Virus record (IMG/VR): IMGVR_UViG_3300029288_000008
Span: 1 to 64,000 of that record
Source: a virus
Lineage: Duplodnaviria > Caudoviricetes
Length of the DNA stretch: 64,000 nt
Strand: one strand, 5' to 3'
Part shown: piece after piece, positions 3,147-42,828 of the stretch
How the letters are laid out: each line of letters opens with the position of its first letter
Numbering within the stretch: the first letter of the stretch is position 1
Notes under the pieces: generated by a model
Databases searched by the model: none
Told to the model about the DNA's origin: nothing
The model's input: the letters and a program-made list of their open reading frames with translations, nothing else
Made by a program: the position numbers and the translations under genes

Positions 3147-3247
3147 TTGACAAGGCGAAAATATGTGGTATAATTCTCTCTATAATTATGATAAACCAAA
3201 TAAAACATCAAAACATCCAGCAATGGACTTTTGGTGTATTATTTTTG
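3147..3247 (+). ncRNA. dispersed small-RNA unit 1 (promoter, TATAATTATG, hairpin with CATCCAGCAA, U-run)
   Basis: TTGACA 3147, TATAAT 3169; TCCA-GCAA-TGGA hairpin; similar to six other units. Confidence 0.55.
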
Positions 3248-3255
3248 TGTGCGAT

Positions 3256-3283
3256 TTGACTGCAAAATATTTTGTGGTATAAT
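3256..3283 (+). promoter_or_regulatory. TTGACT-GCAA class promoter, probably leaderless for the C39 gene
   Basis: TTGACT-16-TATAAT with TGTGG extension; ATG 6 nt after the -10. Confidence 0.75.
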
Positions 3284-3289
3284 ACAGTT

Positions 3290-3898
3290 ATGAAAATTAC
3301 AGGTGAAGCACAAAACATTTTAGTAACAAAAAACGATAGTACAACCGTTGTTGTAAACGATGTGGTGTCAGTTGAGTATTTAGAAGAACTGGCAACCGGT
3401 GAAATTGTGGCATATTCCCAACGTGACGAAAGATGGAGGAGCGACATAATGGTAACTTCCACAATCGGCGGGATGGGATGCGCTATAACCGCTTGTGCAA
3501 TGTTGGGAAGTCAATACAACCCTGGTATAACTCCAAAGTCGCTTAATGCCTATTTGAAAGATAACGGTGGGTACACCTCCGATAATCGGGTATATTGGGC
3601 GAAAGTTACCGGATTAGTACCAGAACTGAAGTTTACCAACTACTACAAATGGCAAGACATTAAGGCCAATTTGCCCTTAGTGCTAGAAGAACTGGCAAAA
3701 CATCCCGTAATCCTTCAGGTTGACTTTAGACCAGGAGGTGAGCTTGATACCCACTTTGTATTAGCGTTATCTAGCGATGGGCAAGACATAGAGATAATTG
3801 ACCCATGGGACGGCGCAAAAACCAAACTGCTCCAAAGATATGCAAAAGAAGGTTGGAACTTAGAACGGGCGGTTTATGCGATGGTAGTTTATGATTAG
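3290..3898 (+). CDS. peptidase C39-like (C39_2) protein, candidate lysin
   Basis: YSQRD..W...TIG..GCAITACAM (Cys), HFVL (His), IIDPW (Asp). Confidence 0.8.
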   Translation: MKITGEAQNILVTKNDSTTVVVNDVVSVEYLEELATGEIVAYSQRDERWRSDIMVTSTIGGMGCAITACAMLGSQYNPGITPKSLNAYLKDNGGYTSDNRVYWAKVTGLVPELKFTNYYKWQDIKANLPLVLEELAKHPVILQVDFRPGGELDTHFVLALSSDGQDIEIIDPWDGAKTKLLQRYAKEGWNLERAVYAMVVYD

Positions 3899-3930
3899 AA
3901 AAAGACGGTAGAAAAATCTACCGTCTTTTT
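3899..3930. terminator. bidirectional terminator
   Basis: AAAAAGACGGTAGA-AAAA-TCTACCGTCTTTTT. Confidence 0.9.
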
Positions 3931-3932
3931 AG

Positions 3933-5339
3933 TTATTGTTCTGTTTCTTGCAACGATTCGCCTTCTAATGCTGCAATGAAACTTAAAAAGTGTTCTGACC
4001 ATCCGTTAACTTCAGCTGTCCACAATCCATCATAGTTAATCCCTCTTGAGTTTGCCGAAACGTCAACGATATAATTTCTCTTTCCAAACGGGTTTGGAGT
4101 TTGCTTTCCTGGCAAGTCGCAATCCTGACTATCTGAGAAGATAACGATTCGGTCAGGTTCACATCTTTCCCGTTCTTTGATGTATTCTAAACACTGTCGG
4201 GTAAAGATACCCCCGCCGCCTAATCTATCCCTAGAATAATCAATCGCTTCACCCAAAGCAAAACCTCGCCGTGGTTTTAACATTTCTGTTTTGTGAATTC
4301 TAGTCGAATCGTTACCGGCTGTAACATAAATCGCAATTCTTTCACACATTGAACTAGCCAACATTGCCATAGACTTTGCAACATCCAACCGGTTAAATTC
4401 GCTCTTTTCAGAAATTGCTCTGCACATAGAACCGGAAACATCAACAACAAAAACGGTATACCCTTTCAGTTTTGGAGACTGCTCTAATCCCCTCAACATT
4501 AACGTTTCAATTTCTCTCTCATATCTTGGAGCGTATTTAGCCGCTGCCATATAGTTGATCGGTAAAAGCCATTGCGGATTAACCTTGCCAAAATACTCAA
4601 CAACTAAATTTCTGTCAACCGCTGCTTCTTCAATGTTTCTAAGATTTCTCAAGAAAGCTAGTGCTCCAAGTTTACCCTCTCTCAAAAGTCTTTCCCAAGA
4701 GTTGCGCTTATCTTTGCTTTGCGATAATTCAACTTCCCAAGTATCCGGTGTTGCCAACTCACCATTAACTAACCGTCGCCATAAATCCTCTTGTGCTTTG
4801 TCTTTCGGTTTGGCATGCACCATAAACAGAACGTCTCTAAGTTTAATCTCATTGTCTCGATTATACTTAGCCAGTTGGTACTCATTGAAATTTCCAAAAG
4901 CTGACGCCAGCCCTAGCTTTACCTGCTTGGATAACGGCTGTTTACCGTCCTTCCAATAGATAGCCAAGAAATCGGTTAATTGATCTGCTCTTGTAATAAT
5001 CTGTGGTAACAGTTCACCAACATACTTCTTGTGTTCTGGAAGTCTAGCCATCACTCTAGCAATAAACAACGGTACGTGCCGCAATTTCTGATTTAGCCTT
5101 GCTTCAAGTGCGATTTGATAAACTGATTCTGGTTTAACCTGTGGAATCAGTGCTTCAATGTTGTTTGCATTATCAACACCGGATTCATACGCCAAATCTT
5201 CCCAAAGCAAGCAAGACATTACAGCGCGTCTTAAAAGCCCTTCTGCGCTTTGATTAGCGGCATATACACCCATACCACCTGCTAACCGATTTTCAGTATC
5301 TTTTCTATAATCCTTCGCTTTCGCGTTAACCTTAACCAT
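3933..5339 (-). CDS. rsr: TROVE domain protein (Ro60/Rsr orthologue) with vWA domain
   Basis: TROVE-like helical region (LRHVP, QLAKY, PDTWE, ALLRNLRN-like AFLRNLRN) and vWA MIDAS motif VDVSGSM; RBS AAGGAG 8 nt before ATG 5339; adjacent Y-RNA-like genes. Confidence 0.92.
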   Translation of the reverse strand: MVKVNAKAKDYRKDTENRLAGGMGVYAANQSAEGLLRRAVMSCLLWEDLAYESGVDNANNIEALIPQVKPESVYQIALEARLNQKLRHVPLFIARVMARLPEHKKYVGELLPQIITRADQLTDFLAIYWKDGKQPLSKQVKLGLASAFGNFNEYQLAKYNRDNEIKLRDVLFMVHAKPKDKAQEDLWRRLVNGELATPDTWEVELSQSKDKRNSWERLLREGKLGALAFLRNLRNIEEAAVDRNLVVEYFGKVNPQWLLPINYMAAAKYAPRYEREIETLMLRGLEQSPKLKGYTVFVVDVSGSMCRAISEKSEFNRLDVAKSMAMLASSMCERIAIYVTAGNDSTRIHKTEMLKPRRGFALGEAIDYSRDRLGGGGIFTRQCLEYIKERERCEPDRIVIFSDSQDCDLPGKQTPNPFGKRNYIVDVSANSRGINYDGLWTAEVNGWSEHFLSFIAALEGESLQETEQ

Positions 5340-5360
5340 TTTCAAGTCTCCTTTTGAAAT

Positions 5361-5392
5361 AAAAAAAAGACGGGTAAAGCACCCCCGTCTTT
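5361..5392 (-). terminator. intrinsic terminator between the RNA array and rsr
   Basis: Minus strand AGACGGG-N9-CCCGTCT followed by T8. Confidence 0.8.
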
Positions 5393-5396
5393 TGTG

Positions 5397-11222: not shown

Positions 11223-11253
11223 AAAAAGCCGATAGAGCATCTATCGGCTTTTT
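11223..11253. terminator. hairpin terminator
   Basis: AAAAAGCCGATAGA-GCA-TCTATCGGCTTTTT. Confidence 0.8.
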
Positions 11254-11350
11254 GACATCTTCTGTCAGTTGTAGTATAATACCAGCTATTATAATTATGG
11301 TTCACCAAAAAAAATCACTACATCCAGGAATGGAATGATGGTGATTTTTT
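11252..11350 (+). ncRNA. dispersed small-RNA unit 2
   Basis: TTGACA 11252-17-TATAAT 11275; TATAATTATG; hairpin with CATCCAGGAA and U-run abutting a convergent stop codon. Confidence 0.55.
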
Positions 11351-11703
11351 TATAGTTCTATGTCATACTCCCCAGGTTCTATTATTGGTTTCCAGTCTTT
11401 TACTTCTATCGGTCTTATACCGTATGCTTTACCGCGTTTGCAGGCTTCCCACATTGCCGTTATAATTCCACCTGGTTTAATGCCAACTGTAACCGCGATT
11501 GCCAACAAATCCCCATCAAACAATGGATACTTTTCTTTTGTGTTATCATTTAATAGATATAATGATCCTTTAGTTCCTTTTATGGTAAGAGTTGCGTAGA
11601 ATGGTATTAAATAATCATAATAATATTTTCGCCTTTCCCAACTATACTCACATCTAACCATTCTTCCGTTACTGTCAAACAGAACTTTTCCATCCCAATT
11701 CAT
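11350..11703 (-). CDS. hypothetical protein
   Basis: ATGA overlap with the upstream gene. Confidence 0.65.
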   Translation of the reverse strand: MNWDGKVLFDSNGRMVRCEYSWERRKYYYDYLIPFYATLTIKGTKGSLYLLNDNTKEKYPLFDGDLLAIAVTVGIKPGGIITAMWEACKRGKAYGIRPIEVKDWKPIIEPGEYDIEL

Positions 11704-12083
11704 TCTGCTATATACCTCTTTTCAACCATCACGGCCAGTTCGATTTCGATACCGTATCCAACTGTATTCCATCGTTTTGCTGTTTCGTAGTCAACTTCTG
11801 CAATGATGTTGTTGCGCTTCATCCAAGAGGATGTTGAACTATGACCACTACAATCAACAACAAGAAACAGTTCCCATTCCTCAGTTCCAACCGGTCTTAA
11901 ATAGTATTCATTGCCAAGTTCATTACAGCTTTCCATAGCAATAAAGCCATCATACCGACTTAAGTCACTAGGAACGGTATAGGCTGTATGTCCCTGTTGT
12001 CTAACCGCTATGGTACGCTCCATAACGCCTGGAGCATACTGAGACGCTATACCGATCATAAGAAGAACTAAGACATTAACCAT
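11700..12083 (-). CDS. secreted RlpA/double-psi beta-barrel-like protein (tentative)
   Basis: Hydrophobic N-terminus, G.ASQY, VVDC and AEVD pattern. Confidence 0.4.
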   Translation of the reverse strand: MVNVLVLLMIGIASQYAPGVMERTIAVRQQGHTAYTVPSDLSRYDGFIAMESCNELGNEYYLRPVGTEEWELFLVVDCSGHSSTSSWMKRNNIIAEVDYETAKRWNTVGYGIEIELAVMVEKRYIAE

Positions 12084-12504
12084 TTAACATTTCCTCAGAT
12101 AGCAGAACGAAGTCTTCTTTCATCCATGGCACAACAACAACCTTTTTTCCATATAGCTCTTTCATATCGCAAAGGTTGCAATTTATTGTCATAGGATAAT
12201 TTACAAGCTCATTGAATATTTTATAGTATTGTTCGCGACCTATGAGGATATATTTTGTTCTTTGAAATGTCGCTCTTGTAATCGCCGTATCTTGTGCAAA
12301 TAGAGCAGTTAAAAAGTCTTTACACCTGAATTCTGTGATTGTTGTTCTTTCCCCTTCGTAATACTGCTTTCCGTATTTTTTAACAATAAACATAATAACA
12401 CGATATAGCCACTTTGGAAGTTTCCTCTGTTTGAATTCATACACATCATTAACTTTTGCCGGCTGTGTTTCCGGTACATTTAACACAAAACGCATTCTAT
12501 CCAT
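12076..12504 (-). CDS. hypothetical protein
   Basis: RBS AAAGGAG favours ATG 12504. Confidence 0.6.
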   Translation of the reverse strand: MDRMRFVLNVPETQPAKVNDVYEFKQRKLPKWLYRVIMFIVKKYGKQYYEGERTTITEFRCKDFLTALFAQDTAITRATFQRTKYILIGREQYYKIFNELVNYPMTINCNLCDMKELYGKKVVVVPWMKEDFVLLSEEMLNG

Positions 12505-12528
12505 TTGTGTGTCTCCTTTGAAAGAAAG

Positions 12529-12623
12529 AAAATAATTCACCACTGGCAATTGCTTGCTTGGATGGTGAATTGATTTTACTATAATTATAACTTACATTAT
12601 ACCACAGACTTTTTTCGTGTCAA
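12529..12623 (-). ncRNA. dispersed small-RNA unit 3
   Basis: TTGACA-16-TATAAT, then TATAATTATAG; hairpin AATTCACCA/TGGTGAATT with CATCCAAGCAA and U-run. Confidence 0.55.
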
Positions 12624-29629: not shown

Positions 29630-29723
29630 TTGACAAACAAAAATGATGTGGTACAATGACCACATCATAATTGTTGTAAACAGAATAATGCGTCTAATCC
29701 AGCAAGGATTGTGCATTATTTTT
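29630..29723 (+). ncRNA. dispersed small-RNA unit 4
   Basis: TTGACA-16-TACAAT, then CATAATTGTTG; hairpin AATAATGC/GCATTATT enclosing AATCC-AGCAA-GGATT. Confidence 0.55.
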
Positions 29724-29858
29724 GTTTTAGCTTTCTGAATTCGTAGTATTTGATAGCAGTTGTAATAGTCAAGTCAACAGCGATAGAGACAAATAATGCC
29801 CATATAGGAATTCCAAGTTGATTAGGCCACATACCGTATACCAGTAAACAAAATACTG

Positions 29859-30092
29859 TTAGCATTCGTCTTTGTCCTCTCCCAATACCTCTTGAAGATG
29901 CCAGTACAAAACCAACATTTCAGTTTTGTCTAGTTCGATCTCATTGTAACCAACGTCGTCAATACCGTCTTCTGTGTTCTCTTGAGTAATCAGTAACCAT
30001 ACACCGTCTTCTTTCTCTTTGGTTTCAAAGATGGTGTCCCAGGTTATACCATCTTCATAACTGTGTGAACTGTCTTTTCTAATCGTTTCCAT
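29859..30092 (-). CDS. hypothetical protein
   Basis: Coupled start/stop in the operon. Confidence 0.6.
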   Translation of the reverse strand: METIRKDSSHSYEDGITWDTIFETKEKEDGVWLLITQENTEDGIDDVGYNEIELDKTEMLVLYWHLQEVLGEDKDEC

Positions 30093-30391
30093 TATTGTGG
30101 ACGCCTTCTCAAAGTGTCTTTCCAGTATTCAATATAACCATAGTTATGATCGAATTGATAATCACCAAAGTCTACTACCCACTGATAATCTTCAACAAAT
30201 GGTTCTTGCTCATAAAAATGCCCATGGCCGTTTTTATCAATTGCCCAATAGTTTGCCCATTCTGGCGCATCGTTCCAATTCGGCTGTAATCCGGTTTCGG
30301 TTTCTTTCAATTCACATACAACGTTATTGACTACCGATACTCCAAACAACTCCTTAAATTCTTCTGTCGTAAGTTCAAACGTAACCTTCAT
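30092..30391 (-). CDS. hypothetical phage protein
   Basis: W..APEWANYWAID..G..HFYE..P motif. Confidence 0.65.
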   Translation of the reverse strand: MKVTFELTTEEFKELFGVSVVNNVVCELKETETGLQPNWNDAPEWANYWAIDKNGHGHFYEQEPFVEDYQWVVDFGDYQFDHNYGYIEYWKDTLRRRPQ

Positions 30392-30397
30392 TTTTTT

Positions 30398-30586
30398 CTA
30401 TTCTCCTTTTAATACTTCCCCTAAGAACTGATAAAGCGCAATGGCTTCTTCTTGAGTAAAAGCGATTATAGATTCTTGTTCACCTTCCTCTTTTTGATAC
30501 ATACCAAGAGGGACTTCTATACCATCGTTATAATATACTTTAGTGTAGCTTTTGAACTTTTCATCATACATCTCTAGCTTTTCCAT
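30398..30586 (-). CDS. hypothetical protein
   Basis: RBS AAAGGAG. Confidence 0.6.
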   Translation of the reverse strand: MEKLEMYDEKFKSYTKVYYNDGIEVPLGMYQKEEGEQESIIAFTQEEAIALYQFLGEVLKGE

Positions 30587-30604
30587 AACGTCTCCTTTAC
30601 TGAT

Positions 30605-30700
30605 AACAAAATACCACCATTAGCGATTGCTTGAATGTTGGCTTTTGTTTGTGAATAATAGGTATACCAGATATTATACCACGTTCTAAAACCGTGTCAA
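30605..30700 (-). ncRNA. dispersed small-RNA unit 5
   Basis: TTGACA-16-TATAAT; hairpin AACAAAA...ATTTTGTT with CATTCAAGCAA. Confidence 0.45.
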
Positions 30701-35341: not shown

Positions 35342-35346
35342 AAATC

Positions 35347-35424: not shown

Positions 35425-35427
35425 CAG

Positions 35428-35499: not shown

Positions 35500-35506
35500 A
35501 TAAAAG

Positions 35507-35577
35507 AGGCGCAAGTCAGAATCGAACCGACCTATTCACTTTTGCAGAGTGACACCTAACCACTTGGCTATTGCGCC
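35507..35577 (-). tRNA. tRNA-Cys(GCA)
   Basis: TCACT-CTGCAAA-AGTGA; U73. Confidence 0.92.
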
Positions 35578-35582
35578 ATTAG

Positions 35583-35655
35583 CAGGGACGGCTTGCTTTG
35601 AACAAGTACCTGCGGTTTTGGAGACCGCCGTTCTAGCCTGTTAAACTACATCCCT
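35583..35655 (-). tRNA. tRNA-Trp(CCA)
   Basis: GCGGT-CTCCAAA-ACCGC; G73. Confidence 0.9.
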
Positions 35656-35664
35656 ATAAAACTC

Positions 35665-35910
35665 CTTATTATTGTCGGAAGGTCCGATCGCCTATTCTTG
35701 TGATCTACCTAGCACATTTCGGCAACACATAGCGGCCCATATTCGGATGTAAATACCTAGTCCACAGTGCCGGGTTATTCTAGTATTTACAGCTTCCTTC
35801 CGTAACCCATTCTATCGTCAATGTGCCACGATTTTCGCGCGATCAAAGCCCTAGTCATCTAACACACACTAAACACCTGCTAGTGTCACGCATAGAACAG
35901 GTTATTTTAA
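35665..35910 (-). ncRNA. unassigned structured RNA between tRNA-Arg and tRNA-Trp
   Basis: About 46% GC, no ORF in the track, several complementary segments (see findings). Confidence 0.45.
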
Positions 35911-35918
35911 TGTACAAG

Positions 35919-35992
35919 TGCCCCCGGAAAGACTCAAACTTTCGACCTTGCGATTAGAAGTCGCTTGCTCTATTCAACTGAGCTACGAGGGC
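35919..35992 (-). tRNA. tRNA-Arg(UCU)
   Basis: GCCCTCG/CGGGGGC; GCGA-CTTCTAA-TCGC. Confidence 0.9.
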
Positions 35993-36120
35993 AAATCGTC
36001 ACAAACCACAATCCCAACATATGATTATGGTATACGGTTACTTCATTGCTACCGTTGTAGTTAAGATTAGCATAGTTTACCGCTGCTTTTTCTGTTATAA
36101 ATACTTTAGTGTATTTCATC
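35971..36120 (-). CDS. 49-aa ORF whose 3' end runs into tRNA-Arg
   Basis: RBS GGAGACGAGG, ATG 36120, MKYTKVFITEKAAVNY...SSVE, TAG inside the tRNA D arm. Confidence 0.4.
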
Positions 36121-36124
36121 CTCG

Positions 36125-36401
36125 TCTCCAAAAGTTGAAAGCACATTAAACTAAATCTATAAACTGAGACGGCTAGTTGGTTTTATCCTCACGTCTCAAG
36201 ATGTCTTTCCACTCGTCGCCATAAAGTTTAATGTGCTTTCGATTTTCAGATCACGCCCTGTCACCGGCGAAACCGATTTATATTCCGCATTGTATTAGCT
36301 GCGCGATACCCTTAAGGTTGTATCCACGTTTGTTAAGAAACTGTACTCACTTTCGTTTACACTGCCTTTATAAGTCGGTCTCATGTGCTTTGTTTCTTAA
36401 C
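36125..36401 (-). ncRNA. structured 5' leader RNA of the tRNA operon
   Basis: Begins at the predicted start site; 10-bp stem 36332-36341/36392-36401; perfect 16-bp stem 36137-36152/36225-36240. Confidence 0.55.
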
Positions 36402-36408
36402 TGTCTAT

Positions 36409-36437
36409 ATTCTACACCCATTCTAAAAAAATGTCAA
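36409..36437 (-). promoter_or_regulatory. promoter of the tRNA operon
   Basis: TTGACA(36437-36432)-17-TAGAAT(36414-36409). Confidence 0.8.
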
Positions 36438-36534
36438 GAGTTTTTCCAACGAGTTTTGGAAATTTGCTATTTTTGGTAAGTTTCGTCTTCTTAATTCGGC
36501 TTGATTATTCAAAACTTTATGCTATAATTAGCCT

Positions 36535-36789
36535 ATGTTGAAACGGATTATAAGAATGGTAAAAAATAAAGTTTGGAAAATTAAGTATAAACACTACCTT
36601 CATTCTAAGGAGTGGGCAGAGAGGCGATTTCTAGTATTATATCGGGATGGGTTTAGGTGTTCTATCTGTGGCGGCACAGAGGAACTAAACGTACACCACA
36701 AAACCTATCAAAATGTATTTCACGAACCGTTATCCGATCTTATAACGCTGTGTAGAAAATGTCATAAAAAGGAGCATAAAAAGAAGTGA
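36535..36789 (+). CDS. HNH endonuclease (probably leaderless)
   Basis: RDGFRCSICG...LNVHH.TY......DLITLCRKCH; TATAAT 6 nt before ATG. Confidence 0.88.
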   Translation: MLKRIIRMVKNKVWKIKYKHYLHSKEWAERRFLVLYRDGFRCSICGGTEELNVHHKTYQNVFHEPLSDLITLCRKCHKKEHKKK

Positions 36790-36980
36790 ACGTCTTAATA
36801 CATCATAATGATGAGGCTGGCGTGGTTTGGTATTCAGTGTGTAAAGAATCTGATCCTGGGTATTGGATAGATTCTTTTGATACCAAAAGAGAAGCAGAGA
36901 AGTTTTGTAGTGATAACGGTTATACAATCGTTGGGTTTTGGTGTTCTATAATCGGATGCAAACAACACAAGGGAGGCTAA
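36786..36980 (+). CDS. hypothetical protein
   Basis: GTGA overlap with the HNH stop. Confidence 0.55.
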   Translation: MNVLIHHNDEAGVVWYSVCKESDPGYWIDSFDTKREAEKFCSDNGYTIVGFWCSIIGCKQHKGG

Positions 36981-36984
36981 ATTA

Positions 36985-38421
36985 TTGGAAATCTTAAAAC
37001 AGATAGAATTGCAGGAACGTGGTGATGCTGAGGTATTATCAGAAATATTTGAGAATAAACTTGTTTTTGACCACGAAGAACGACAGTGGTATATCTTTGA
37101 AAACAACTTCTGGCGAACCGATCATACCAGTCACGTTTATAATTTAGTGGAAGCCGTTGCGAAGTGTTATGAGGCAGCAATCAAACAAGCTGAAATTGAC
37201 CCGGCTAACTCTAAATATAGATTGTATAAGGCGCGTATCAATAGCCTTAGAAATAGAGCCGGTATTAAAAATGCTTTGGAACTGGCTACCGCTAAACTCG
37301 CTCTAAAACAGAAATGGGATTCTAATCCGTTTCTATTGGCTGTAAAGAATGGTGTCATAGAATTAAAAACCGGTGAATTGAGAGAGGGTAAGCCATCGGA
37401 TTATATCCGCAAAGTCGCCGATGTGGAATGGAAGGGACTAGAAGAACCTTGCCCACGCTTTGAACTGTTTATGCAAGAAATGTTTCCAAGAAACCAAGAA
37501 ATTATTGACTTTCTCCAAAGGATGTTTGGGTACTCTATCAGTGGTTTATCGGTTGAACACATTATGCCCGTCTTTTTTGGAGCACAGGGTAGAAACGGTA
37601 AAGATGTGTTATTGTCTACCATCTGCTCGGTATTAGGGGATGATTTAGCCAGTCCCATTTCAAAAGAGGTTTTATTAAGTGGACTTAAATCACCCGGTGC
37701 GAGTGCTCCATTCCTGTATGAGTTACAGGGTAAGCGGTTGGTTTACTCCGATGAAACCAGCGAAGGTGCCGGATTTGATGAAAGCCAAGTTAAAATGCTA
37801 TCCGGTGGCGCTCCTTTCGTTGCCAAAAAGTTGTATATGCAACCAACGATCATACATCCTGAGTATCTTTTAGTTCTGATAACTAACAATCGCCCGGTGG
37901 TAAGCGCAGAAGATGATGCTATCTGGGAACGGCTGGTATTAGTACAGTTCACTGAAAGATTTGTAGACAATCCTATTTATGACAACGAACATCCTCAAGA
38001 CAAATACTTGAAGTATAAATTAGAAGAAGAAAAGAGCGGTATACTCGCTTGGTTAGTTAGAGGCTTTTTACAGTGGCAAGAAAAAGGTTTAGACATTCCC
38101 GACAGTGTAAAATACACCACAGACAATTACAGGACAGAACAAGATGCGGTAGGCCGTTTTATAGATACCGAATGTATCATAGACAATGATGAAAAGGTAT
38201 CGGCTTCAAATATCTTTAGATGTTATGAACAGTGGACACAAACCGATAGTGTTAAGAAATTAAATAGTAGAGAATTCGCCCGCAAATTGGAAGCGAAGGG
38301 CTTCCAGAAACGGCGCTATGCTGAAGGCTACTTCTATTTAGGGCTGAACATAAAACCGACAGTCGAAATGGAACTTGAGAAATACTTAGAAGAGATACAA
38401 CAACTAGAAGAACCCGCCTAA
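36985..38421 (+). CDS. P4/D5-like SF3 helicase (D5_N plus ATPase), no primase domain
   Basis: D.NPFLLAVKNGVIELKTG, GAQGRNGKD, YSDET, LSGG, TNNRP, DDAIWERL. Confidence 0.88.
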   Translation: MEILKQIELQERGDAEVLSEIFENKLVFDHEERQWYIFENNFWRTDHTSHVYNLVEAVAKCYEAAIKQAEIDPANSKYRLYKARINSLRNRAGIKNALELATAKLALKQKWDSNPFLLAVKNGVIELKTGELREGKPSDYIRKVADVEWKGLEEPCPRFELFMQEMFPRNQEIIDFLQRMFGYSISGLSVEHIMPVFFGAQGRNGKDVLLSTICSVLGDDLASPISKEVLLSGLKSPGASAPFLYELQGKRLVYSDETSEGAGFDESQVKMLSGGAPFVAKKLYMQPTIIHPEYLLVLITNNRPVVSAEDDAIWERLVLVQFTERFVDNPIYDNEHPQDKYLKYKLEEEKSGILAWLVRGFLQWQEKGLDIPDSVKYTTDNYRTEQDAVGRFIDTECIIDNDEKVSASNIFRCYEQWTQTDSVKKLNSREFARKLEAKGFQKRRYAEGYFYLGLNIKPTVEMELEKYLEEIQQLEEPA

Positions 38422-38449
38422 AGGGTTCTTTTTTTGTTGTCAGGATGTA

Positions 38450-38690
38450 TGAATGTACCATAATGTACCCATTTTCATAAACTCTCTATAATTTAATTTA
38501 GTATATTTTTTTATATATTTCATGGAAAAGGTACATTTCATACATTGGGTACATCTATATTAAGATTCTTATAATTTATATTTATTTTCTGTAAGAATAT
38601 TAAGTTGTATATTAAGATTATTAAGGCAACTGATAAGAAAATTAAGTGTACCTATTTTTGAAATGGTACACTATCATACATCTTATGTGA
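38450..38690. repeat. putative replication origin (TGTACC iterons around an AT-rich core)
   Basis: TGTACC near 38454, 38464, 38647; GGTACA near 38530, 38548, 38665; extremely AT-rich 38555-38645. Confidence 0.6.
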
Positions 38691-38761
38691 CTAGTCAACA
38701 ATAATTAAGCGGATTACATGGTGTAATCCGCTTAATTTTCTTGAGTATGGTATTTCAAAGA

Positions 38762-39064
38762 TTAAAGTATATCATACCAATATTGTAGTTTTTCTTTCGA
38801 CCGTTGGGATTTTTTAAGGTCAAGAGTTACATTGTTCTCCCAATCGTTTATTAACAGTTGCCTTACTTGTTGTTTGTATACATCTTCTGTTTTTGGCTGT
38901 TTTTCAAATCGTTTTGTGAATCTGTCTTTTTTGTCGTATGGGGTTGTTTCTAAAATGTAGTTGCGATATTCTAGCCAAGAGTTAAACGATTCTGGAAGAT
39001 CGTTGTTGTTGTAAATGTAACTATCTTTTGCGTACAGGGCAGCGGAATTAGCGTCTTTGAACAT
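38762..39064 (-). CDS. hypothetical protein, possibly the C-terminal fragment of a larger (IbrA/PAPS-reductase-like) gene
   Basis: No clear RBS; LP..F.SW.EYRNYIL...QQVRQLLINDWE resembles that family from memory only. Confidence 0.35.
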   Translation of the reverse strand: MFKDANSAALYAKDSYIYNNNDLPESFNSWLEYRNYILETTPYDKKDRFTKRFEKQPKTEDVYKQQVRQLLINDWENNVTLDLKKSQRSKEKLQYWYDIL

Positions 39065-39234
39065 ACTACAACTCTCAGTAATGGAGTTGTTGGAAAAGGT
39101 TGGACATACGAAGAATCGTTGATTGATGCAGTTGAAGGTTGCGAATATTGCGATTGGTTAATCGCCAGCGATTTAATTAAATAACATTCTTACATATAAA
39201 AGACCGGTGAAAATCCGGTCTTTTTTTTGTGTCT

Positions 39235-39262
39235 TTGACTGCAAGAAATATTGTGGTATAAT
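39235..39262 (+). promoter_or_regulatory. TTGACT-GCAA class promoter (portal)
   Basis: TTGACTGCAA...TGTGGTATAAT, spacer 16. Confidence 0.75.
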
Positions 39263-39296
39263 AAGGTAAACGCATATTTGCTTTATTAGGGGATAT

Positions 39297-41438
39297 ATGG
39301 AAAATAAAGTTGTAGAGTCGAGTGTACAAGTCAAAGATAGGAATTATTGGAATTCTACCATTTTTAGAATGGCGGCACAATACGATATAACGCCAACTTG
39401 GTGGACTCCTAGCAGGGATGCATTCTTTAGGGGATACTGGTATCAAGAGGACTTTCTGGCAAGTGCCATCTATGCCATTGCGAACCGTAACGCTGCCTTT
39501 GGTTGGCAATTAACCGGATTAGATGATGATGTAAAAAGAGCACAGCAGCTTTTGCAGTTTGCAGAATTTGGAGAGGGTTGGCAACAACTCATAATTAAAA
39601 CTTCTACCGACCTGCTAACACAGGATAACGGGGCATTTATAGAAGTTATCCGACCGGCCAGGGTAAGAATTGACGGTAAATCTTTACCAGCAGTTAAAGA
39701 GTATTATGAAAGCGATAATGCAGAATGGTTTGCATTCGATGGCGGCAAAAGAATAGCGGCAAAGGGCTACGATGTATATGATTCTCCATTAGACTTACCC
39801 ATTGGGATTGCTCATTTAGATTCTGGGCAATGTCAAAGAACTGGCGACCCTGAGACACCCGTTTTATATACCGATAGGAACGGAAAAAAACACGCCTTAA
39901 AATGGTGGCAAGTTTTAATGTTCAATGAGATGCCGTCACCGATTGAAAAAATGAATGGGGTTGGAATGTGTGCAGTATCGCGCCTGTTTAGGTCAAGCCA
40001 TATCATGCAATCCATATCTCTATACAATGATGAAAAGATAAGTGGGCGTTTTAACCGGGCTGTATTTCTGACAAATGTAGACCCGGATACAATCAATGAT
40101 GCCATTGCCCTTGCAGAGAATGACGCCGATAATAAAGGACTAATCCGATACAGCCAACCGATTGTAGCAGCAACGCTTGATCCGACTTCGCAAGTATCCC
40201 TAGAAACAATAAACCTTGCAGAAATACCCGACAACTTTAATTTCAATGATGTACAGAACTGGTATATTGCAAATCTAGCCCTAGCTTTGGGTGTTGATTA
40301 TGGTTTCCTTGCGCCGTTACCGGGTAAGGGTTTGGGAAGTGCTTCACAGTCTGAAACGATGGAAAGACAATCTAGGGGAAAGTCAAGCCGTCTGTTTATG
40401 GACATGATTTCTAATGCAGTAAACTTCAAGGGGATTTTACCAGAATCGGTACAGTTTGAATTTATCGAAAAGGATTCTGAAGAAGATGCTAGAATCGAAA
40501 AAGTAAGAATGGATAGGGCAAAGCGGTATCAGGTTTATGGGGAAATGGGATGGATAACACCAACCGTAGCACAACAAATGCTTGCCGATGAAGGGGACAT
40601 ACCAGAGGTTTATGTGGAACAGATGGGGCAAGAGGACACAACCCCCGTAACCACTACTGAAGGGGACGAAAACGTAGAGGCAACAGAAGAACAAGCTGAA
40701 GGAATAGAAGAAAGTGAGCAAGTCAAAGAAAGACAAAAACAACTATTCAAAAGACCGTCGTTGGTTAAACGTATTAAAAATGTTACGGCAAAAATTTTCA
40801 AGAAAAAACAAGTCGAAGCCCCGGAAGTAGATAACCAATCATTGCAAGAAGCTTTGGATAATTATTCTGAGGAACTAGAAACCCTTACCCTAAGAGCCAA
40901 TAATGGCGAGTTGACACAAGCCGAATTTGAGAATCAGCTATCAAATATGGTTACACTTTCTCTAATGGCTATCTATTCTCAAATGGTGGGGAAAGACCCC
41001 GAGGACTTTACAGAAGAAGAACAAGACCGATTGGATGAATACGTTAATGTAAACCTTGAAAGTGTAGGGCAATTAGCAGATGATATTTACTCGGATAAGT
41101 ACCAGGATACAGAAGATCGGGATGGAACGGCGATGTTGTTGGTAAGGATGGGTTTATGGGTAATGAATGCTTATGCTCTAGCTACATTGGGGATGTTGAA
41201 TAACCCATCAAATCAAGAAAATAAATTACGATGGAACTTAGGAACGGCGGAGCATTGTTCTACTTGTTTGGCTTTAGATGGTCAAATTCATACAGTTAGC
41301 GAGTGGAATGATAGCGGATTCTATCCAGGAAATACCAGTTTACTGCTATGCAATGGCTTTAACTGCGCATGCAGATTTTCGGACGTAAGTCCGAGTACGC
41401 CAAGTCAAGGAAGTTTTAATTCAGTTCCAACTAAATAA
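39297..41438 (+). CDS. portal protein fused to a MuF/SPP1 gp7-like head morphogenesis domain
   Basis: Portal-like N-terminal about 450 aa; acidic linker; C-terminal W......HC.TC..LDG...PG...C.G.NC.C. Confidence 0.7.
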   Translation: MENKVVESSVQVKDRNYWNSTIFRMAAQYDITPTWWTPSRDAFFRGYWYQEDFLASAIYAIANRNAAFGWQLTGLDDDVKRAQQLLQFAEFGEGWQQLIIKTSTDLLTQDNGAFIEVIRPARVRIDGKSLPAVKEYYESDNAEWFAFDGGKRIAAKGYDVYDSPLDLPIGIAHLDSGQCQRTGDPETPVLYTDRNGKKHALKWWQVLMFNEMPSPIEKMNGVGMCAVSRLFRSSHIMQSISLYNDEKISGRFNRAVFLTNVDPDTINDAIALAENDADNKGLIRYSQPIVAATLDPTSQVSLETINLAEIPDNFNFNDVQNWYIANLALALGVDYGFLAPLPGKGLGSASQSETMERQSRGKSSRLFMDMISNAVNFKGILPESVQFEFIEKDSEEDARIEKVRMDRAKRYQVYGEMGWITPTVAQQMLADEGDIPEVYVEQMGQEDTTPVTTTEGDENVEATEEQAEGIEESEQVKERQKQLFKRPSLVKRIKNVTAKIFKKKQVEAPEVDNQSLQEALDNYSEELETLTLRANNGELTQAEFENQLSNMVTLSLMAIYSQMVGKDPEDFTEEEQDRLDEYVNVNLESVGQLADDIYSDKYQDTEDRDGTAMLLVRMGLWVMNAYALATLGMLNNPSNQENKLRWNLGTAEHCSTCLALDGQIHTVSEWNDSGFYPGNTSLLLCNGFNCACRFSDVSPSTPSQGSFNSVPTK

Positions 41439-41453
41439 TTTTTACAATCAATT

Positions 41454-41699
41454 TTATCGTTTTGTGTTTTCCCATTCGCTGTAATCTTTACAGAATGCCT
41501 TAATGGTGTCTTGCACATAATCTATAAGTTCTACAAATGATTTGCCGTAAGGTGTATTAGCAAACAGAAAACTAAAACAATCGCTATACACCCCATAGTT
41601 TTCATTGTCGGTATATTCTATCTCTACCAATACCTTACGATCATACATCAAACTAGCATGACTTCCCCATCGTTGCTTTTTTGTTTTCCATTCAAACAT
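41454..41699 (-). CDS. hypothetical protein
   Basis: Convergent with portal. Confidence 0.55.
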   Translation of the reverse strand: MFEWKTKKQRWGSHASLMYDRKVLVEIEYTDNENYGVYSDCFSFLFANTPYGKSFVELIDYVQDTIKAFCKDYSEWENTKR

Positions 41700-41703
41700 A
41701 AGA

Positions 41704-41952
41704 TTACCTCATATACCAGATGTTAAAATCAATACAAAAGTTCCTAATTAAGTCTTCTACCGATTTCTTAACCGTTTCAATATCGGTTGAGCAGAGAGTG
41801 GTATCATTGAATCCGAATACATTATCAGACAACATACAGTAGATAAAAAAGAAGTCTCTCAACTGAATAATCTTAAATGCTAGTAGGTATTTACTAAAGT
41901 ATAAATAATGCTTGTTGTCCTCTTGCTCCCATCTAAAGTTCATCTTTGACAA
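41704..41952 (-). CDS. hypothetical protein
   Basis: RBS AAAGGAG. Confidence 0.6.
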   Translation of the reverse strand: MSKMNFRWEQEDNKHYLYFSKYLLAFKIIQLRDFFFIYCMLSDNVFGFNDTTLCSTDIETVKKSVEDLIRNFCIDFNIWYMR

Positions 41953-42042
41953 TCTCCTTTGTTTATGGTATAATGATGCTAATTATAATTATTGTTAAAT
42001 AATGCATCCAAGCAATCAAAGGCTTATGGTGCATTATTTTTT
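41946..42042 (+). ncRNA. dispersed small-RNA unit 6
   Basis: TTGACA-17-TATAAT, then TATAATTATTG; hairpin AATAATGCA/TGCATTATT with CATCCAAGCAA. Confidence 0.55.
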
Positions 42043-42047
42043 GTTTG

Positions 42048-42506
42048 CTAATCCCACCAGTTTTGCAGTTTCTCTTTCAGTGTATTGAATACGAATTCAA
42101 AGTCTTGTTGTTTAAGATCATCTGAGCGACGGTTTAACGATTGCCAGATTTTTAACGCTCTATCATTATCGGTTGAGTCTGGGAAGTGTAATCGAAACGG
42201 GTTAGTTGTACCACAGATATAACCGTGTTTTTCATACAGTAGATCATACCACTGTTTATTGTAATCATCATTCAGGTATCGCTTTAGCGCATCTAATGCG
42301 TCGCCGATTTCTATGGATAGGTCTTTTGCATCTATACATACGGTTAGTTTATCGTTTGCAAAAAACTCTTGCATATTGTGTAACTTAAACGATAAAATAT
42401 CGAGTAGATACCCATAATCAAAATCGGCATCATTCCATAAGATCGGTAGCCAGCGTATAATGTTTTTAAGGCGTCGTATTAGTGTTTTCATCGGTCGGTT
42501 CCTCAA
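42048..42506 (-). CDS. hypothetical phage protein
   Basis: RW.PILWND.DFDY.YLL..L..KL..M...WWD pattern. Confidence 0.7.
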   Translation of the reverse strand: MRNRPMKTLIRRLKNIIRWLPILWNDADFDYGYLLDILSFKLHNMQEFFANDKLTVCIDAKDLSIEIGDALDALKRYLNDDYNKQWYDLLYEKHGYICGTTNPFRLHFPDSTDNDRALKIWQSLNRRSDDLKQQDFEFVFNTLKEKLQNWWD

Positions 42507-42711
42507 TGATCATAAAGTGAGTAACCACATAATAATTACAGTCAGAAGTTTTTTCAATATTCTGTGGCAAAAAATAAAATCCGTCATATTCACAAATATC
42601 GAAATCTGTAATAACATCTGCGTGCGGCCCAACATAAAATTCAATAAAGCATAAAACCAATTCGTTTTTGTTTAATACCTTCTCTGCATTCTCTTCCGAT
42701 TCCCATTTCAT
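42466..42711 (-). CDS. hypothetical protein (DUF551-like VTHFM..P tail)
   Basis: RBS AAGGAG. Confidence 0.55.
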   Translation of the reverse strand: MKWESEENAEKVLNKNELVLCFIEFYVGPHADVITDFDICEYDGFYFLPQNIEKTSDCNYYVVTHFMIIEEPTDENTNTTP

Positions 42712-42732
42712 TGTAATATCTCCTTTTCAGAT

Positions 42733-42828
42733 ATAAAAATGCCCCATAGACCGTTTGAGGCTTGGAAGCATTTCTATATTTATAATAATGGTGGTTAGTA
42801 TTATACCACTAGAATGGCAATTCGTCAA
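42733..42828 (-). ncRNA. dispersed small-RNA unit 7
   Basis: TTGACG-17-TATAAT; hairpin AAATGC/GCATTT with CTTCCAAGCCT and U-run. Confidence 0.4.

What the first reader, a model, noticed from the sequence alone, without database searches (positions are those of the whole stretch)
3147..42828. Family of seven dispersed promoter-hairpin-terminator small-RNA units
Seen at 3147(+), 11252(+), 12623(-), 29630(+), 30700(-), 41946(+) and 42828(-). Each has a near-consensus TTGAC(A/G)-16/17-TA(T/C)AAT promoter, a second -10-like hexamer starting 6-12 nt later (TATAAT in four units), and a 35-50-nt hairpin with a U-run. The hairpin carries CATCCA(A)GCAA or a variant (3214, 11321, 12564, 29696, 30637, 42005, 42768). 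Three units face convergent genes, one is followed by a separate promoter, and three precede same-strand genes, so they are not simple leaders. Established: lambda pR' uses a -10-like element at +1 to +6 for sigma-dependent pausing ahead of a terminator so that the Q antiterminator can load; phages also make decoy RNAs (anti-CRISPR repeat mimics, type III antitoxin mimics). Inference: either a genome-wide antitermination switch (read-through turns on downstream genes or sends antisense RNA into convergent operons) or a multicopy 60-75-nt decoy sRNA family. I do not recognise it as a named element.
Basis: partly seen in the sequence, partly recalled or inferred. Interest (0 to 1): 0.75.

Follow-up and report, generated by a model that had tools for sequence, protein, structure and literature searches.

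The report
Phage promoter-pause-terminator boundary cassettes
An uncultured 85-kb phage carries nine copies of a 100-bp unit (a very strong host-type promoter, a second promoter-like box at the transcript start, then a stop hairpin), and these units sit in facing pairs around small swappable gene blocks, much like the known PeSL cassettes of T4-type phages but built differently.

Summary
All seven units are real. Two more lie on the same 85.5-kb phage contig beyond the window, at C2:68534(+) and C2:71966(-). Sixteen homologous units occur in eleven related metagenomic phage contigs.

Each unit has:
- a consensus sigma-A promoter;
- an NATAAT box starting 5-9 nt after the -10 (18/22 units vs 8/135 other promoter-like sites);
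- a long bulged hairpin with A-tract and U-tract flanks, whose basal helix covaries.

Predicted RNAs are about 60-67 nt. Rfam has no match.

Units fall into two conserved roles. "Head" units lie in front of a gene block, have weak U-tracts, and the upstream gene's stop codon lies inside their promoter. "Tail" units fire against the 3' end of the block and have strong U-tracts. In seven phages one head/tail pair brackets the same slot with different cargo. Variant genomes break exactly at unit edges.

My best reading (about 0.5) is cis-acting PeSL-like boundary cassettes that attenuate, insulate and serve as exchange junctions. The CATCCA(A)GCAA motif is lineage-specific; the box is what is conserved. 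A Q-like antitermination switch (no Q gene, no conserved promoter spacer) and a trans-acting sRNA family remain possible. No expression data exist.

The parts
3147..3248 (+). Unit u1 (solo). Promoter TTGACA-16-TGTGGTATAAT, box TATAATTAT at 3181-3189, hairpin about 3205-3240 with a UCCA-GCAA-UGGA apex, then U5. A second promoter follows at 3256. Its -35 overlaps the -35 of a divergent promoter (TTGTCA 3153-3148, TATAAT 3131-3126, minus strand).
   Evidence: E 2.5e-8 when left out
11252..11352 (+). Unit u2 (tail type). Box TATAATTAT at 11290-11298. Hairpin flanked by A8 and U7, so it can terminate in both directions. It faces the stop of the minus-strand gene 11350-11703. A canonical terminator and an iteron-rich, origin-like region lie just upstream.
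12527..12623 (-). Unit u3 (head type). The stop codon of upstream ORF 12597-12878 lies in the -10. Box at 12588-12580, GCAA-GCAA-UUGC apex, interrupted U-tract, then the RBS and ATG (12504) of cassette 1.
11350..12504 (-). Cassette 1: three ORFan genes (117, 127 and 142 aa) bracketed by u2 and u3.
29630..29726 (+). Unit u4 (tail type). TACAAT -10, box CATAATTGT at 29666-29674, AAUCC-AGCAA-GGAUU apex, U5. An inverted repeat ATGATGTGGT/ACCACATCAT spans the -10. A variant-genome breakpoint lies at 29627, 3 nt before the -35.
30603..30700 (-). Unit u5 (head type). The TGA stop of the upstream ORF (30697-30975) lies inside the TTGACA -35. The first box is degenerate (TATACC) but is followed by TATTAT. 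Weak U-tract, then the RBS and ATG (30586) of cassette 2.
29716..30586 (-). Cassette 2: four small ORFan genes (62, 99, 77 aa and a 49-aa hydrophobic peptide) bracketed by u4 and u5.
41946..42043 (+). Unit u6 (tail type). Box TATAATTAT at 41984-41992, hairpin GCAUCCAAGCAAUC...UAUGGUGC, U6. The promoter spacer holds, on the other strand, the RBS of the outward gene 41704-41943. A 242-nt insertion in variants lies at 41944/41945.
   Evidence: E 1.5e-9 when left out
42730..42828 (-). Unit u7 (head type). The stop of the upstream gp49_66-like ORF (42809-43135) lies in the promoter spacer. Degenerate first box, hairpin GCUUCCAAGCC...AUGGGGC, U5, then the RBS and ATG (42711) of cassette 3. Both hairpin arms are nearly identical in the homologous head units of L053 and L054 and are largely retained in L030 and L035.
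42048..42711 (-). Cassette 3: two ORFan genes (81 and 147 aa) bracketed by u6 and u7. The same slot in six related phages carries partly or wholly different cargo.
2765..2870 (-). Possible degenerate tenth member. Strong promoter (TTGACA-16-TGTGGTACAAT) followed by hairpin AAUGCCCCGAAUCCACAGUCGGGGCAAUU. It has no box and only a weak U-run, is followed by promoter 2725(-), and is not detected by the profile.
   Evidence: by eye only

Best explanation
The units are cis-acting composite transcription-boundary cassettes of an uncultured phage that depends on the host's sigma-A polymerase.

Each unit joins three parts:
1. A near-consensus extended -10 promoter.
2. One or two -10-like hexamers (NATAAT, then TATNRT) at about +1 to +12. 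These are predicted to re-capture sigma and hold the polymerase close to the promoter.
3. A long, bulged hairpin flanked by an A-tract and a U-tract, which can stop transcription from either side.

"Head" units sit between an upstream gene and a block of small accessory genes. They stop or thin out incoming transcription, restart it, and let a fraction through a weak U-tract to express the block.

"Tail" units sit at the far end of the block. The hairpin ends the block's mRNA, and a counter-promoter fires into the same hairpin from outside. That makes a dead-end RNA of about 60-67 nt and keeps a polymerase parked there. Read-through in either direction is blocked, for example into the origin-like region next to u2 or into neighbouring operons.

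Because the units are homologous and lie exactly at block edges, they also act as junctions at which related phages exchange cargo, as PeSLs do.

Shown: the sequence family, its conservation, helix covariation, the head/tail contexts, the variable cargo, and breakpoints at unit edges. Inferred: promoter activity, pausing, termination strength, insulation, and any role in recombination.
For: - Family membership. Nine copies, all on the phage contig, each recovered by leave-one-out profile search. Sixteen more occur in relatives sharing 64-88% identity in the 713-aa anchor protein.
- Box. NATAAT begins 5-9 nt after the -10 in 18/22 unit promoters against 8/135 other promoter-like sites in the same DNA (Fisher 5e-14). 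Its first base varies, ATAAT is fixed and the palindrome is not kept (ATAATCAT, ATAATAAT). This fits an asymmetric -10-like element rather than a dimer operator.
- Hairpin. The basal helix covaries: score 0.286 against 0.137 shuffled (0/500 shuffles as high), and at most 0.12 in slid controls.
- Head units. The upstream ORF's stop lies inside the promoter and an RBS follows directly after the hairpin. Their U-tracts are short or interrupted, whereas tail and solo units have U5-U7.
- Not ordinary terminators. The phage's ordinary terminators are short, perfect GC stems with U7-8, and the simple scan does not call the unit hairpins.
- Conserved slot, variable cargo. A convergent head/tail pair brackets the same slot in seven phages. 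Cargo is partly shared in the four closest and unrelated in the three others.
- Breakpoints at unit edges. Variant genomes in three runs from two studies join 29350 to 29627, 3 nt before u4's -35. The right side has 0 differences and the left side 32 differences in 257 nt. A 242-nt insertion lies at 41944/41945, the edge of u6, in X5 and in L053. In L053 an extra 80-aa ORF is inserted directly after the u7-type hairpin.
- Units do not follow position. The tail units of L054 and L033 are closest to C2's u9, not u6.
- Cargo genes are ORFans.
- Published concept. Composite strong-promoter and stem-loop cassettes that flank ORFans and mediate shuffling are described in PMC2839356 and PMC4122927.
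Against: - There are no transcript data. No RNA run is listed for this phage, so promoter firing, pausing, termination and insulation are all untested.
- Putting a strong promoter upstream of the hairpin is wasteful for a pure boundary. It would equally fit a regulated attenuator or an RNA product.
- Three solo units (u1, L030:9873, L051:13898) have no incoming same-strand transcription to stop and only another promoter downstream. That hints that the act of transcription, or the RNA itself, matters.
- Hairpin arms are conserved in sequence, not only in pairing, among the homologous head units. The arms of u7 are nearly identical in L053 and L054 and largely retained in L030 and L035. A plain terminator does not require that.
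- The paired units are inverted, so recombination between them would invert the block, not excise it as in PeSL mini-circles.
- The breakpoint evidence rests on a few contigs and a handful of relatives.
Confidence: 0.5

Rival explanations
1. Factor-dependent antitermination switch. Polymerase pauses at the -10-like box, and a phage protein loads there or binds the nascent 5' arm of the hairpin. The polymerase becomes terminator-resistant. Head-unit cargo is then turned on and tail units send antisense transcription into the blocks. A factor-free variant is also possible: sigma retained after the pause keeps out termination-enhancing elongation factors. Transcripts started at the unit would then pass the weak hairpin while those arriving from upstream stop.
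For: - The box has the position (+1 to about +9) and the base pattern (variable first base, fixed ATAAT) of sigma-dependent pause elements such as lambda pR' (the comparison is from established knowledge).
- The promoter lies upstream of the terminator in every unit.
- Head units have weak, tunable terminators.
- Antitermination coordinating several separate loci has been reported for the Bartonella gene transfer agent (bioRxiv 10.1101/2024.11.20.624540; title and abstract start seen, paper not read).
Against: - No Q-family domain (PF06530, PF03589) and no clear phage sigma on the contig.
- No transcription factor was recognised among 30 proteins scanned against Pfam or PHROGs (one search rescanned nine of these).
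- Promoter spacers are unconserved, so there is no QBE-like DNA site.
- Hairpin interiors are not conserved in relatives, so a sequence-specific RNA-binding antiterminator is unlikely.
- Read-through from tail units would be antisense to 1-14 kb of genes.
Confidence: 0.18
2. A multicopy family of free small RNAs of about 60-67 nt. They would act in trans as decoys or sponges for a host or phage RNA-binding protein, or act as cis-antisense RNAs against transcripts that read through the tail units. The outward genes next to u6 and u9 would be targets of that kind.
For: - Solo units (u1, L030:9873, L051:13898) are self-contained promoter-to-terminator transcription units with nothing to terminate or lead into.
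- Predicted RNA length is fairly uniform, about 60-67 nt.
- Hairpin arms are conserved in sequence among the homologous head units.
- The phage encodes a Ro60/TROVE protein.
- Any minus-strand transcript crossing u6 would be fully complementary to the u6 RNA.
Against: - No seed-like region is conserved apart from the A/U-only 5' end. Hairpin interiors differ completely between related phages.
- There is no Rfam match, even at E<=5.
- The CATCCA(A)GCAA motif occupies different structural registers in different copies.
- Head units are clearly leaders of downstream genes.
- No CRISPR array is available for a mimicry test, and there is no likeness to the phage's own mini-array repeat.
Confidence: 0.12
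3. The hairpins are mainly RNA processing and stability elements. In this reading they are RNase III sites or 5'/3' protective stem-loops between cistrons, as in the early RNAs of Bacillus phage SP82 and coliphage T7. The adjacent promoters would be ordinary early promoters.
For: - The stems are long (about 16-20 bp), bulged and intercistronic, unlike this phage's compact terminators.
- Arm sequences are conserved.
- SP82 early mRNA has defined B. subtilis RNase III sites.
Against: - Every hairpin carries a U-run, and usually a matching A-run, as terminators do.
- This reading explains neither the box nor the inward-facing and solo units.
- No cleavage data exist.
Confidence: 0.08
4. Tail units hide a second, opposite-strand promoter for the outward neighbouring gene. 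Its -35 would be TTGnnn, read from the CAA of the hairpin's 5' arm, and its -10 would lie in the A/T box. The two promoters would interlock and exclude each other. The conserved motifs would then be DNA signals read on the other strand.
For: - On the reverse strand, u6, u9, L053:7415, L032:9214, L030:13053, L033:13034 and L031:6411 show TTGnnn, 16-18 nt, then (T/C)AT(A/T)AT. That is seven of the eight tail units with an outward gene whose RBS lies in the forward promoter's spacer (read).
- The tail units without an outward gene (u2, u4) lack this pattern.
Against: - The -35 matches are poor (3-4 of 6), and the consensus scan does not call them.
- L054:6039 lacks the TTG.
- The reverse complement of the conserved NATAAT is not a -10. 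Different parts of the A/T-rich box have to be used in different units.
- Head units show similar chance-level patterns.
- Read-through from the block can supply the outward genes.
Confidence: 0.1

Closest known systems
PeSLs (promoter-early stem-loops), the mobile regulatory cassettes of T4-type phages RB49, phi1, PST and nt-1 (Arbiol et al. 2010, PMC2839356; Comeau et al. 2014, PMC4122927)
   Same: - Dispersed units of about 100 bp that combine a consensus host-sigma early promoter with a stem-loop terminator or attenuator.
- The stop codon of the upstream gene and the RBS of the downstream gene abut or overlap the unit.
- They flank small ORFan genes in variable regions.
- Related phages differ by insertions, deletions and replacements whose edges lie at the units.
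   Different: - No sequence homology, and an unrelated, uncultured phage lineage with Gram-positive-type signals (TGn extended -10, AAAGGAG RBS).
- The stem-loop lies 20-35 nt downstream of the transcription start, so the unit terminates its own transcript. In PeSLs it lies upstream of, within or just after the promoter hexamers, before the start.
- A conserved -10-like box sits at the transcript start.
- The stems are long, bulged and AU-based rather than GGGG/CCCC.
- The units occur as inverted head/tail pairs, not direct repeats, so no mini-circle is expected.
- Some units are solo or face gene ends.
Lambdoid late-gene control region pR'-tR' with Q antiterminator (lambda, 82, 21), and the short pR'-tR' transcript
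   Same: A strong promoter, a -10-like hexamer at about +1 to +6 on the non-template strand, and an intrinsic terminator a short distance downstream that yields a short RNA unless the polymerase is modified.
   Different: - Nine copies instead of one, half of them aimed at gene ends.
- No Q-family gene and no conserved element between the -35 and -10.
- The terminator is much closer (about 60 nt, versus 194 nt in lambda).
- There is no long late operon downstream.
Face-to-face promoter interference ("sitting duck" and collision models, e.g. coliphage 186 pR/pL) and bidirectional intrinsic terminators between convergent operons
   Same: A strong promoter is aimed at an oncoming transcription unit, and a shared hairpin with A- and U-tracts can stop both directions.
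   Different: Here the counter-transcript is predicted to end after about 60 nt at the shared hairpin. The arrangement is a repeated, conserved module rather than a single developmental switch. The comparison is from my own knowledge and was not tested.
Earlier notes of this scan on other uncultured phages: hairpin-capped counter-promoters (e1-5797705) and promoter-palindrome cassettes (e1-5914807)
   Same: Strong host-type promoters fire into the end of the neighbouring early gene block or into a shared palindrome. They recur in relatives and were judged PeSL-like boundary markers.
   Different: They come from other genomes and have different unit anatomy (the hairpin lies at the RNA 5' end, or is a GC-rich palindrome). 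These are unchecked AI notes, and I did not examine those sequences.

Membership tests
PeSL (promoter-early stem-loop) cassettes | Strong host sigma-70-type early promoter inside the repeat | tested here: met
   TTGACA, 16-17 nt, TATAAT, matching 11-12 of 12 positions, with a TGn extension in 8 of 9 units. Activity was not measured.
PeSL (promoter-early stem-loop) cassettes | Adjacent stable stem-loop acting as terminator or attenuator | tested here: met
   All 25 units fold. The basal helix covaries and U-runs are present. Termination itself was not measured.
PeSL (promoter-early stem-loop) cassettes | Intergenic position flanking small ORFan genes in variable regions, with the upstream stop and downstream RBS at the unit | tested here: met
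PeSL (promoter-early stem-loop) cassettes | Insertions, deletions and replacements between related phages have their edges at the units | tested here: met
   Joints at 29627 and at 41944/41945 and an edge at 42727. The L053 insertions lie at the u6 and u7 edges. Cargo is unrelated between homologous unit pairs. The sample is small.
PeSL (promoter-early stem-loop) cassettes | Stem-loop placed upstream of, between, overlapping, or just after the promoter hexamers but before the transcription start (five subclasses, PMC2839356) | tested here: not met
   The main hairpin begins 20-35 nt after the predicted start. Only u4, u5, u7, u8 and L053:7415 also have a short inverted repeat around or before the -10.
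PeSL (promoter-early stem-loop) cassettes | Direct-repeat arrangement that yields excised mini-circles | tested here: not met
   The four pairs on C2 and the six pairs in relatives are inverted (plus on the left, minus on the right). Circle formation cannot be tested here.
Lambdoid Q / pR'-tR' antitermination module | A -10-like pause-inducing element in the initially transcribed region | tested here: met
   The sequence is present and enriched: 18/22 against 8/135. Pausing itself cannot be tested here.
Lambdoid Q / pR'-tR' antitermination module | Q-family antiterminator gene in the same genome | tested here: not met
   PF06530 gave only a sub-threshold hit on host contig C1. PF03589 gave none.
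Lambdoid Q / pR'-tR' antitermination module | Conserved Q-binding DNA element between the -35 and -10 | tested here: not met
   Spacers share no motif across units.
Any Rfam family (sRNA, leader, riboswitch) | Covariance-model match at or near the gathering score | tested here: not met
   Only tRNAs reached the gathering score. In the E<=5 scan of 29500-43000 the only matches overlapping a unit were two at u4, OrzO-P (26.8 bits against 60) and SNORA51 (21.3 against 50), both chance level.
Type I toxin-antitoxin (3'-overlapping antisense RNA) | Small hydrophobic toxin ORF whose mRNA 3' end overlaps the convergent small RNA | tested here: not met
   Only cassette 2 ends in a 49-aa hydrophobic ORF. 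The last genes of the other three blocks are soluble proteins of 75-147 aa.
RNA anti-CRISPR / CRISPR-repeat mimic | Hairpin resembles a host or phage CRISPR repeat | tested here: inconclusive
   No array with at least 3 repeats was found in the 94%-complete assembly. By eye there is no likeness to the phage mini-array repeat seen.

The most novel reading that the evidence does not exclude
The tandem -10-like hexamers at the transcript start act as a built-in composition switch. Polymerases that start at the unit keep sigma, or load an unrecognised phage factor there. They therefore treat the following weak, bulged hairpin differently from polymerases arriving from upstream. One 100-bp module would then both seal off the upstream operon and license its own transcript, and nine such gates would time the phage's accessory genes. 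This would be a multi-site, Q-independent, sigma-pause-coupled terminator bypass in a Gram-positive-type phage.
Probability: 0.18. Interest if true: 0.8.

Novelty: new variant of a known kind. Interest (0 to 1): 0.55.

Why it matters
Sigma-dependent promoter-proximal pausing has one classic use in phages, the loading of Q at a single late promoter. Here the same sequence signature is hard-wired into a repeated module that is conserved across a whole uncultured phage lineage and is always coupled to a nearby hairpin.

If the module works as proposed, it is a compact natural part of about 100 bp that insulates, attenuates and restarts transcription at gene-block borders. It would also mark where phages swap accessory genes. 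This would extend the PeSL idea beyond T4-type phages and to a different internal logic: promoter before terminator, inverted head/tail pairs, and counter-promoters.

The module is directly testable with reporter constructs and in vitro transcription, and it could be useful as a synthetic-biology insulator. If instead the 60-67-nt RNAs are the product, it would be a new multicopy phage sRNA family.

Tried and rejected
- **Rfam.** At gathering score and at E<=5, only tRNAs and chance-level matches.
- **IMG/VR exact-pattern scans.** The first gave 18 hits, all chance.
- **GenBank phages.** No near DNA match. Terminase gave only distant hits (at most 28% identity) and the 713-aa protein gave none. 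blastn of u6 matched only the promoter part in Lactococcus and Staphylococcus phages.
- **IMG/VR by terminase.** Nothing.
- **GTDB genomes by the 713-aa profile.** Only relatives at 26-37% identity.
- **RNAalifold on MAFFT alignments.** It returned no consensus three times (one search also held a stray sequence added by mistake). I therefore tested a hand-drawn helix with the count of structure pairs. The inner part of the hairpin could not be aligned consistently.
- **Reverse-strand promoter.** Considered in detail and mostly rejected; kept as a minor rival.
- **T4 MotA-box reading of TTGCTT.** Rejected because spacing to the box ranges from 17 to 27 nt.
- **Leaderless mini-ORF starting at the ATG in TATAATTATG.** Present in about 9 of 25 units, with no conserved frame or length; rejected.
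- **Palindromic operator ATAATTAT.** Rejected because relatives keep ATAAT but not the symmetry.
- **Type I toxin-antitoxin.** Only one cassette fits.
- **CRISPR mimic.** No arrays were found to compare.
- **Q-family and sigma searches.** Negative on the phage contig.
- **Sequencing runs.** No RNA holder is listed, and only DNA contigs could be laid.
- **Other motif copies.** A copy of the motif at 26793 (reverse strand) and the borderline profile hit at C1:709864 both lie in coding DNA and are chance.

Full report
**Where the window lies.** The window is the first 64 kb of contig C2 (85,549 bp, 38.9% GC) of a 17-contig, 1.25-Mb assembly whose main contig has 43% GC. C2 is a phage:
- It encodes terminase, primase, helicases, NrdD and a TROVE/Ro60 protein, and carries nine tRNAs.
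- It has 35 TTGAC-N17-19-TAnAAT sites, 0.41 per kb against 0.064 per kb on the main contig.

It comes from a landfill metagenome. Near-identical or related DNA occurs in leachate and wastewater runs. No cultured relative exists in GenBank phages.

**Checking the observation.** All seven units are at the stated places and strands and align. Each has these parts:
- TTGAC(A/G), 16-17 nt, then TA(T/C)AAT, usually with a TGn extension.
- 6-9 nt later, a box (T/C)ATAATTAT. It is degenerate in u5 and u7, which still carry a following TATTAT.
- 15-35 nt later, a hairpin with a U-run. Folding gave dG -13.6 to -19.2 kcal/mol and z -2.5 to -5.4.

Two more units lie beyond the window, at C2:68534(+) and C2:71966(-).

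I tested family membership with a leave-one-out nhmmer search that excluded the promoter. Every left-out unit came back as the best non-training hit in the whole assembly (E 1.5e-9 to 0.002; 0.5 for u7), and no other hit had E<0.01. So there are nine copies, all on the phage. A degenerate tenth may sit at 2870(-). Predicted transcripts are about 60-67 nt.

**Relatives.** The 713-aa protein next to u6 has many metagenomic homologues. I fetched eleven contigs with 55-90% identity. The profile found sixteen further units in them, giving a 25-sequence alignment (A5). Three things are conserved across the lineage:
- The promoter.
- The box. NATAAT starts 5-9 nt after the -10 in 18 of 22 unit promoters, against 8 of 135 other promoter-like sites in the same DNA (Fisher 5e-14, not corrected for relatedness).
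- The base of the hairpin, with its A-tract and U-tract (AAUAAUGC...GCAUUAUUUUU or AAAAAUGC...GCAUUUUUAUAU).

A hand-drawn helix on A5 pairs in 74% of cells. Its covariation score is 0.286 against 0.137 for shuffles (0 of 500 as high), and at most 0.12 when the partners are slid.

Hairpin interiors in relatives are unrelated in sequence. Within C2 the motif sits in different registers: UCCA pairs with UGGA under a GCAA loop in u1, whereas CAUC pairs with GGUG in u6.

In the box the first base varies (T, C or G), ATAAT is fixed, and the palindrome ATAATTAT is not kept (ATAATCAT, ATAATAAT). A second TATNRT hexamer usually follows. From established knowledge, this is the pattern expected of a non-template -10-like element read by sigma region 2, as at lambda pR'. 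It is not the pattern of a symmetric operator.

**Context.** The units fall into roles.
- **Head units** (u3, u5, u7, u8 and seven in relatives) have the stop codon of the upstream ORF inside their own promoter: TGA within TTGACA, TAA within TATAAT, or a stop in the spacer. An RBS and start codon follow 10-20 nt after the hairpin. Their U-tracts are short or interrupted.
- **Tail units** (u2, u4, u6, u9 and seven in relatives) face the 3' end of an opposite-strand gene. They have U5-U7 plus a matching A-tract, so the hairpin can stop both directions.
- **Solo units** (u1, L030:9873, L051:13898) are followed only by another promoter.

On C2 the units form four convergent pairs: 11252/12623, 29630/30700, 41946/42828 and 68534/71966. 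Each pair encloses 0.7-3.4 kb of small genes without family matches.

The phage's ordinary terminators are short perfect GC stems with U7-8. The simple terminator scan finds those but not the unit hairpins. The unit hairpins are therefore a distinct, probably leakier class.

**Comparative evidence for a boundary or junction role.**
- The same head/tail pair brackets the slot between the 713-aa gene side and the gp49_66-like/nrdD side in seven phages. The cargo differs: a 147-aa and a roughly 75-aa gene are shared only by the four closest phages, with extra genes inserted, and L030, L033 and L031 carry unrelated ORFs.
- DNA contigs from other samples join 29350 to 29627, 3 nt before u4's -35, in three runs from two studies. 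They are identical to the right of the joint and about 87% identical to the left.
- One variant carries 242 extra letters at 41944/41945, the upstream edge of u6, and contig L053 has an insertion of about that size at the same point. One variant breaks at 42727, the end of u7's hairpin. L053 has an extra 80-aa ORF inserted directly behind the u7-type hairpin.
- Units are better conserved than the neighbouring coding DNA (83-91% against 69% between C2 and L053).
- The tail units of L054 and L033 resemble C2's u9 more than u6, so units do not simply follow position.

**Comparison with what is known.** The closest described thing is the PeSL of T4-type phages. PeSLs are dispersed composite cassettes of a strong sigma-70-like promoter and a stem-loop terminator that flank ORFans and mediate modular shuffling (PMC2839356, PMC4122927).

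The present units meet the promoter, stem-loop, ORFan-flanking and breakpoint criteria. They differ in four ways:
- The stem-loop lies downstream of the start, so the unit stops its own transcript.
- They carry the -10-like box.
- The stems are long, bulged and AU-based.
- The units are arranged as inverted head/tail pairs.

They share the pause-element-plus-terminator layout of lambdoid pR'-tR'. However, there are nine of them, no Q-family gene, no conserved spacer element, and no phage sigma.

**Mechanism.** I commit, at about 0.5, to cis-acting boundary cassettes.
- Head units end incoming transcription, restart it and pass an attenuated fraction into the cargo.
- Tail units end the cargo mRNA and back this up with a counter-promoter. 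Its polymerase, held by the box, occupies the border and makes only a dead-end RNA of about 60 nt.
- Homology between units lets related phages swap cargo.

Everything about activity is inference.

The rivals are:
- a pause-coupled antitermination or sigma-retention switch (0.18);
- a free sRNA or cis-antisense family (0.12), for which the solo units and the conserved arm sequences are the best arguments;
- interlocked reverse promoters in tail units (0.10);
- RNase III or stability hairpins (0.08).

**What could not be done.** No RNA run is listed for this phage. No host CRISPR array was found. No factor could be named among the 30 proteins scanned.

**Earlier notes of this scan.** One note describes the same family from an overlapping window (e1-5924594). 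Others describe similar counter-promoter units in other uncultured phages (e1-5797705, e1-5914807). I used these only as leads.

Noticed in passing
window 10812-11220: Non-coding region packed with direct repeats (TGTACCTTTT several times; (T)CCCCACTTT(T)ACCC four times) between promoter 10811(-) and a canonical terminator at about 11224-11252. It looks like an iteron-type replication origin, and unit u2 starts right behind it.
   Followed up: no
window 2725(-), 10811(-), 27361(+), 36437(-), 46003(+); C2:67504(-), 67582(+), 68206(+); L030:8752, L030:9635, L033:99 and others: A second promoter class: TTGACA-17-TA(G/T)AAT followed by a conserved short leader, AnAGnnAGTTnAGnGATAAAGGAG, running straight into the RBS. 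It is shared with related phages.
   Followed up: no
window 3256(+), 27817(+), 39235(+), 47378(+); C2:72800(+); L030:1595, 9942, 17586; L032:6331; L033:6778: A third promoter class with a conserved spacer start and downstream tract (TTGACT(T)TGCAAT...TGnTATAATAAAG). It lies in front of the 713-aa gene and other large, probably structural, genes. This may be a site for a phage regulator.
   Followed up: no
window 29351-29626: A 276-bp AT-rich stretch with its own class-I-type promoter on the minus strand (TTGACA 29563, TATACT) and no convincing ORF, ending at the terminator near 29345-29390. It is absent from variant genomes in three runs, so it may be an indel of a non-coding RNA module. A 30-nt repeat (TATAAAAACTGTAAC(T/C)TTATGTTCTAT) also occurs at 2733-2760.
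   Followed up: partly
window 29716-29865 (-): A 49-aa strongly hydrophobic ORF with a basic tail (MLTVFCLLVYGMW...KYYEFRKLKQK) is the last gene of cassette 2. Its 3' end abuts the convergent unit u4. It may be a holin-like or toxin-like peptide.
   Followed up: no
window 30975-31009 (-): Promoter 31009(-) has its -10 only 6 nt before the ATG of the 92-aa ORF 30697-30975, so the mRNA is probably leaderless.
   Followed up: no
G000:C10:193-300 (locus L011): On another contig of the assembly there is a consensus promoter, CATAATATAATAAT starting 6 nt after the -10, and then a GC hairpin with a GAAA loop and U5. All of this lies upstream of a sigma-70-family gene (Sigma70_r4 hit at C10:693-839). 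The architecture matches the units, but there is no sequence homology.
   Followed up: partly
window 3126-3153 (-): A divergent strong promoter (TTGTCA-16-TGTGGTATAAT) whose -35 overlaps u1's -35 base for base. It leads to an 85-aa ORF (2867-3124) with no Pfam match.
   Followed up: partly
window 29643-29668, 30661-30680, 42784-42806; C2:68540-68555 (L009:4540-4555): Short inverted repeats pair the extended -10 region (GTGGT / GGTATA) with the bases just after it (ACCAC / TATACC), or lie within the spacer (CCACT..AGTGG in u8). These resemble the PeSL subclasses in which the stem-loop overlaps the promoter.
   Followed up: no
window 51450-52373 (-): A free-standing HNH homing endonuclease (NUMOD4 + HTH + HNH_3) lies among plus-strand genes.
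   Followed up: no
window 3933-5345 (-) and 35122-35232 (-): A TROVE/Ro60-like protein with a vWA domain. There is also a sub-threshold YrlA (Y RNA-like) Rfam match overlapping two tRNAs in the tRNA cluster. Related phages (L033, L034) also encode TROVE proteins.
   Followed up: no
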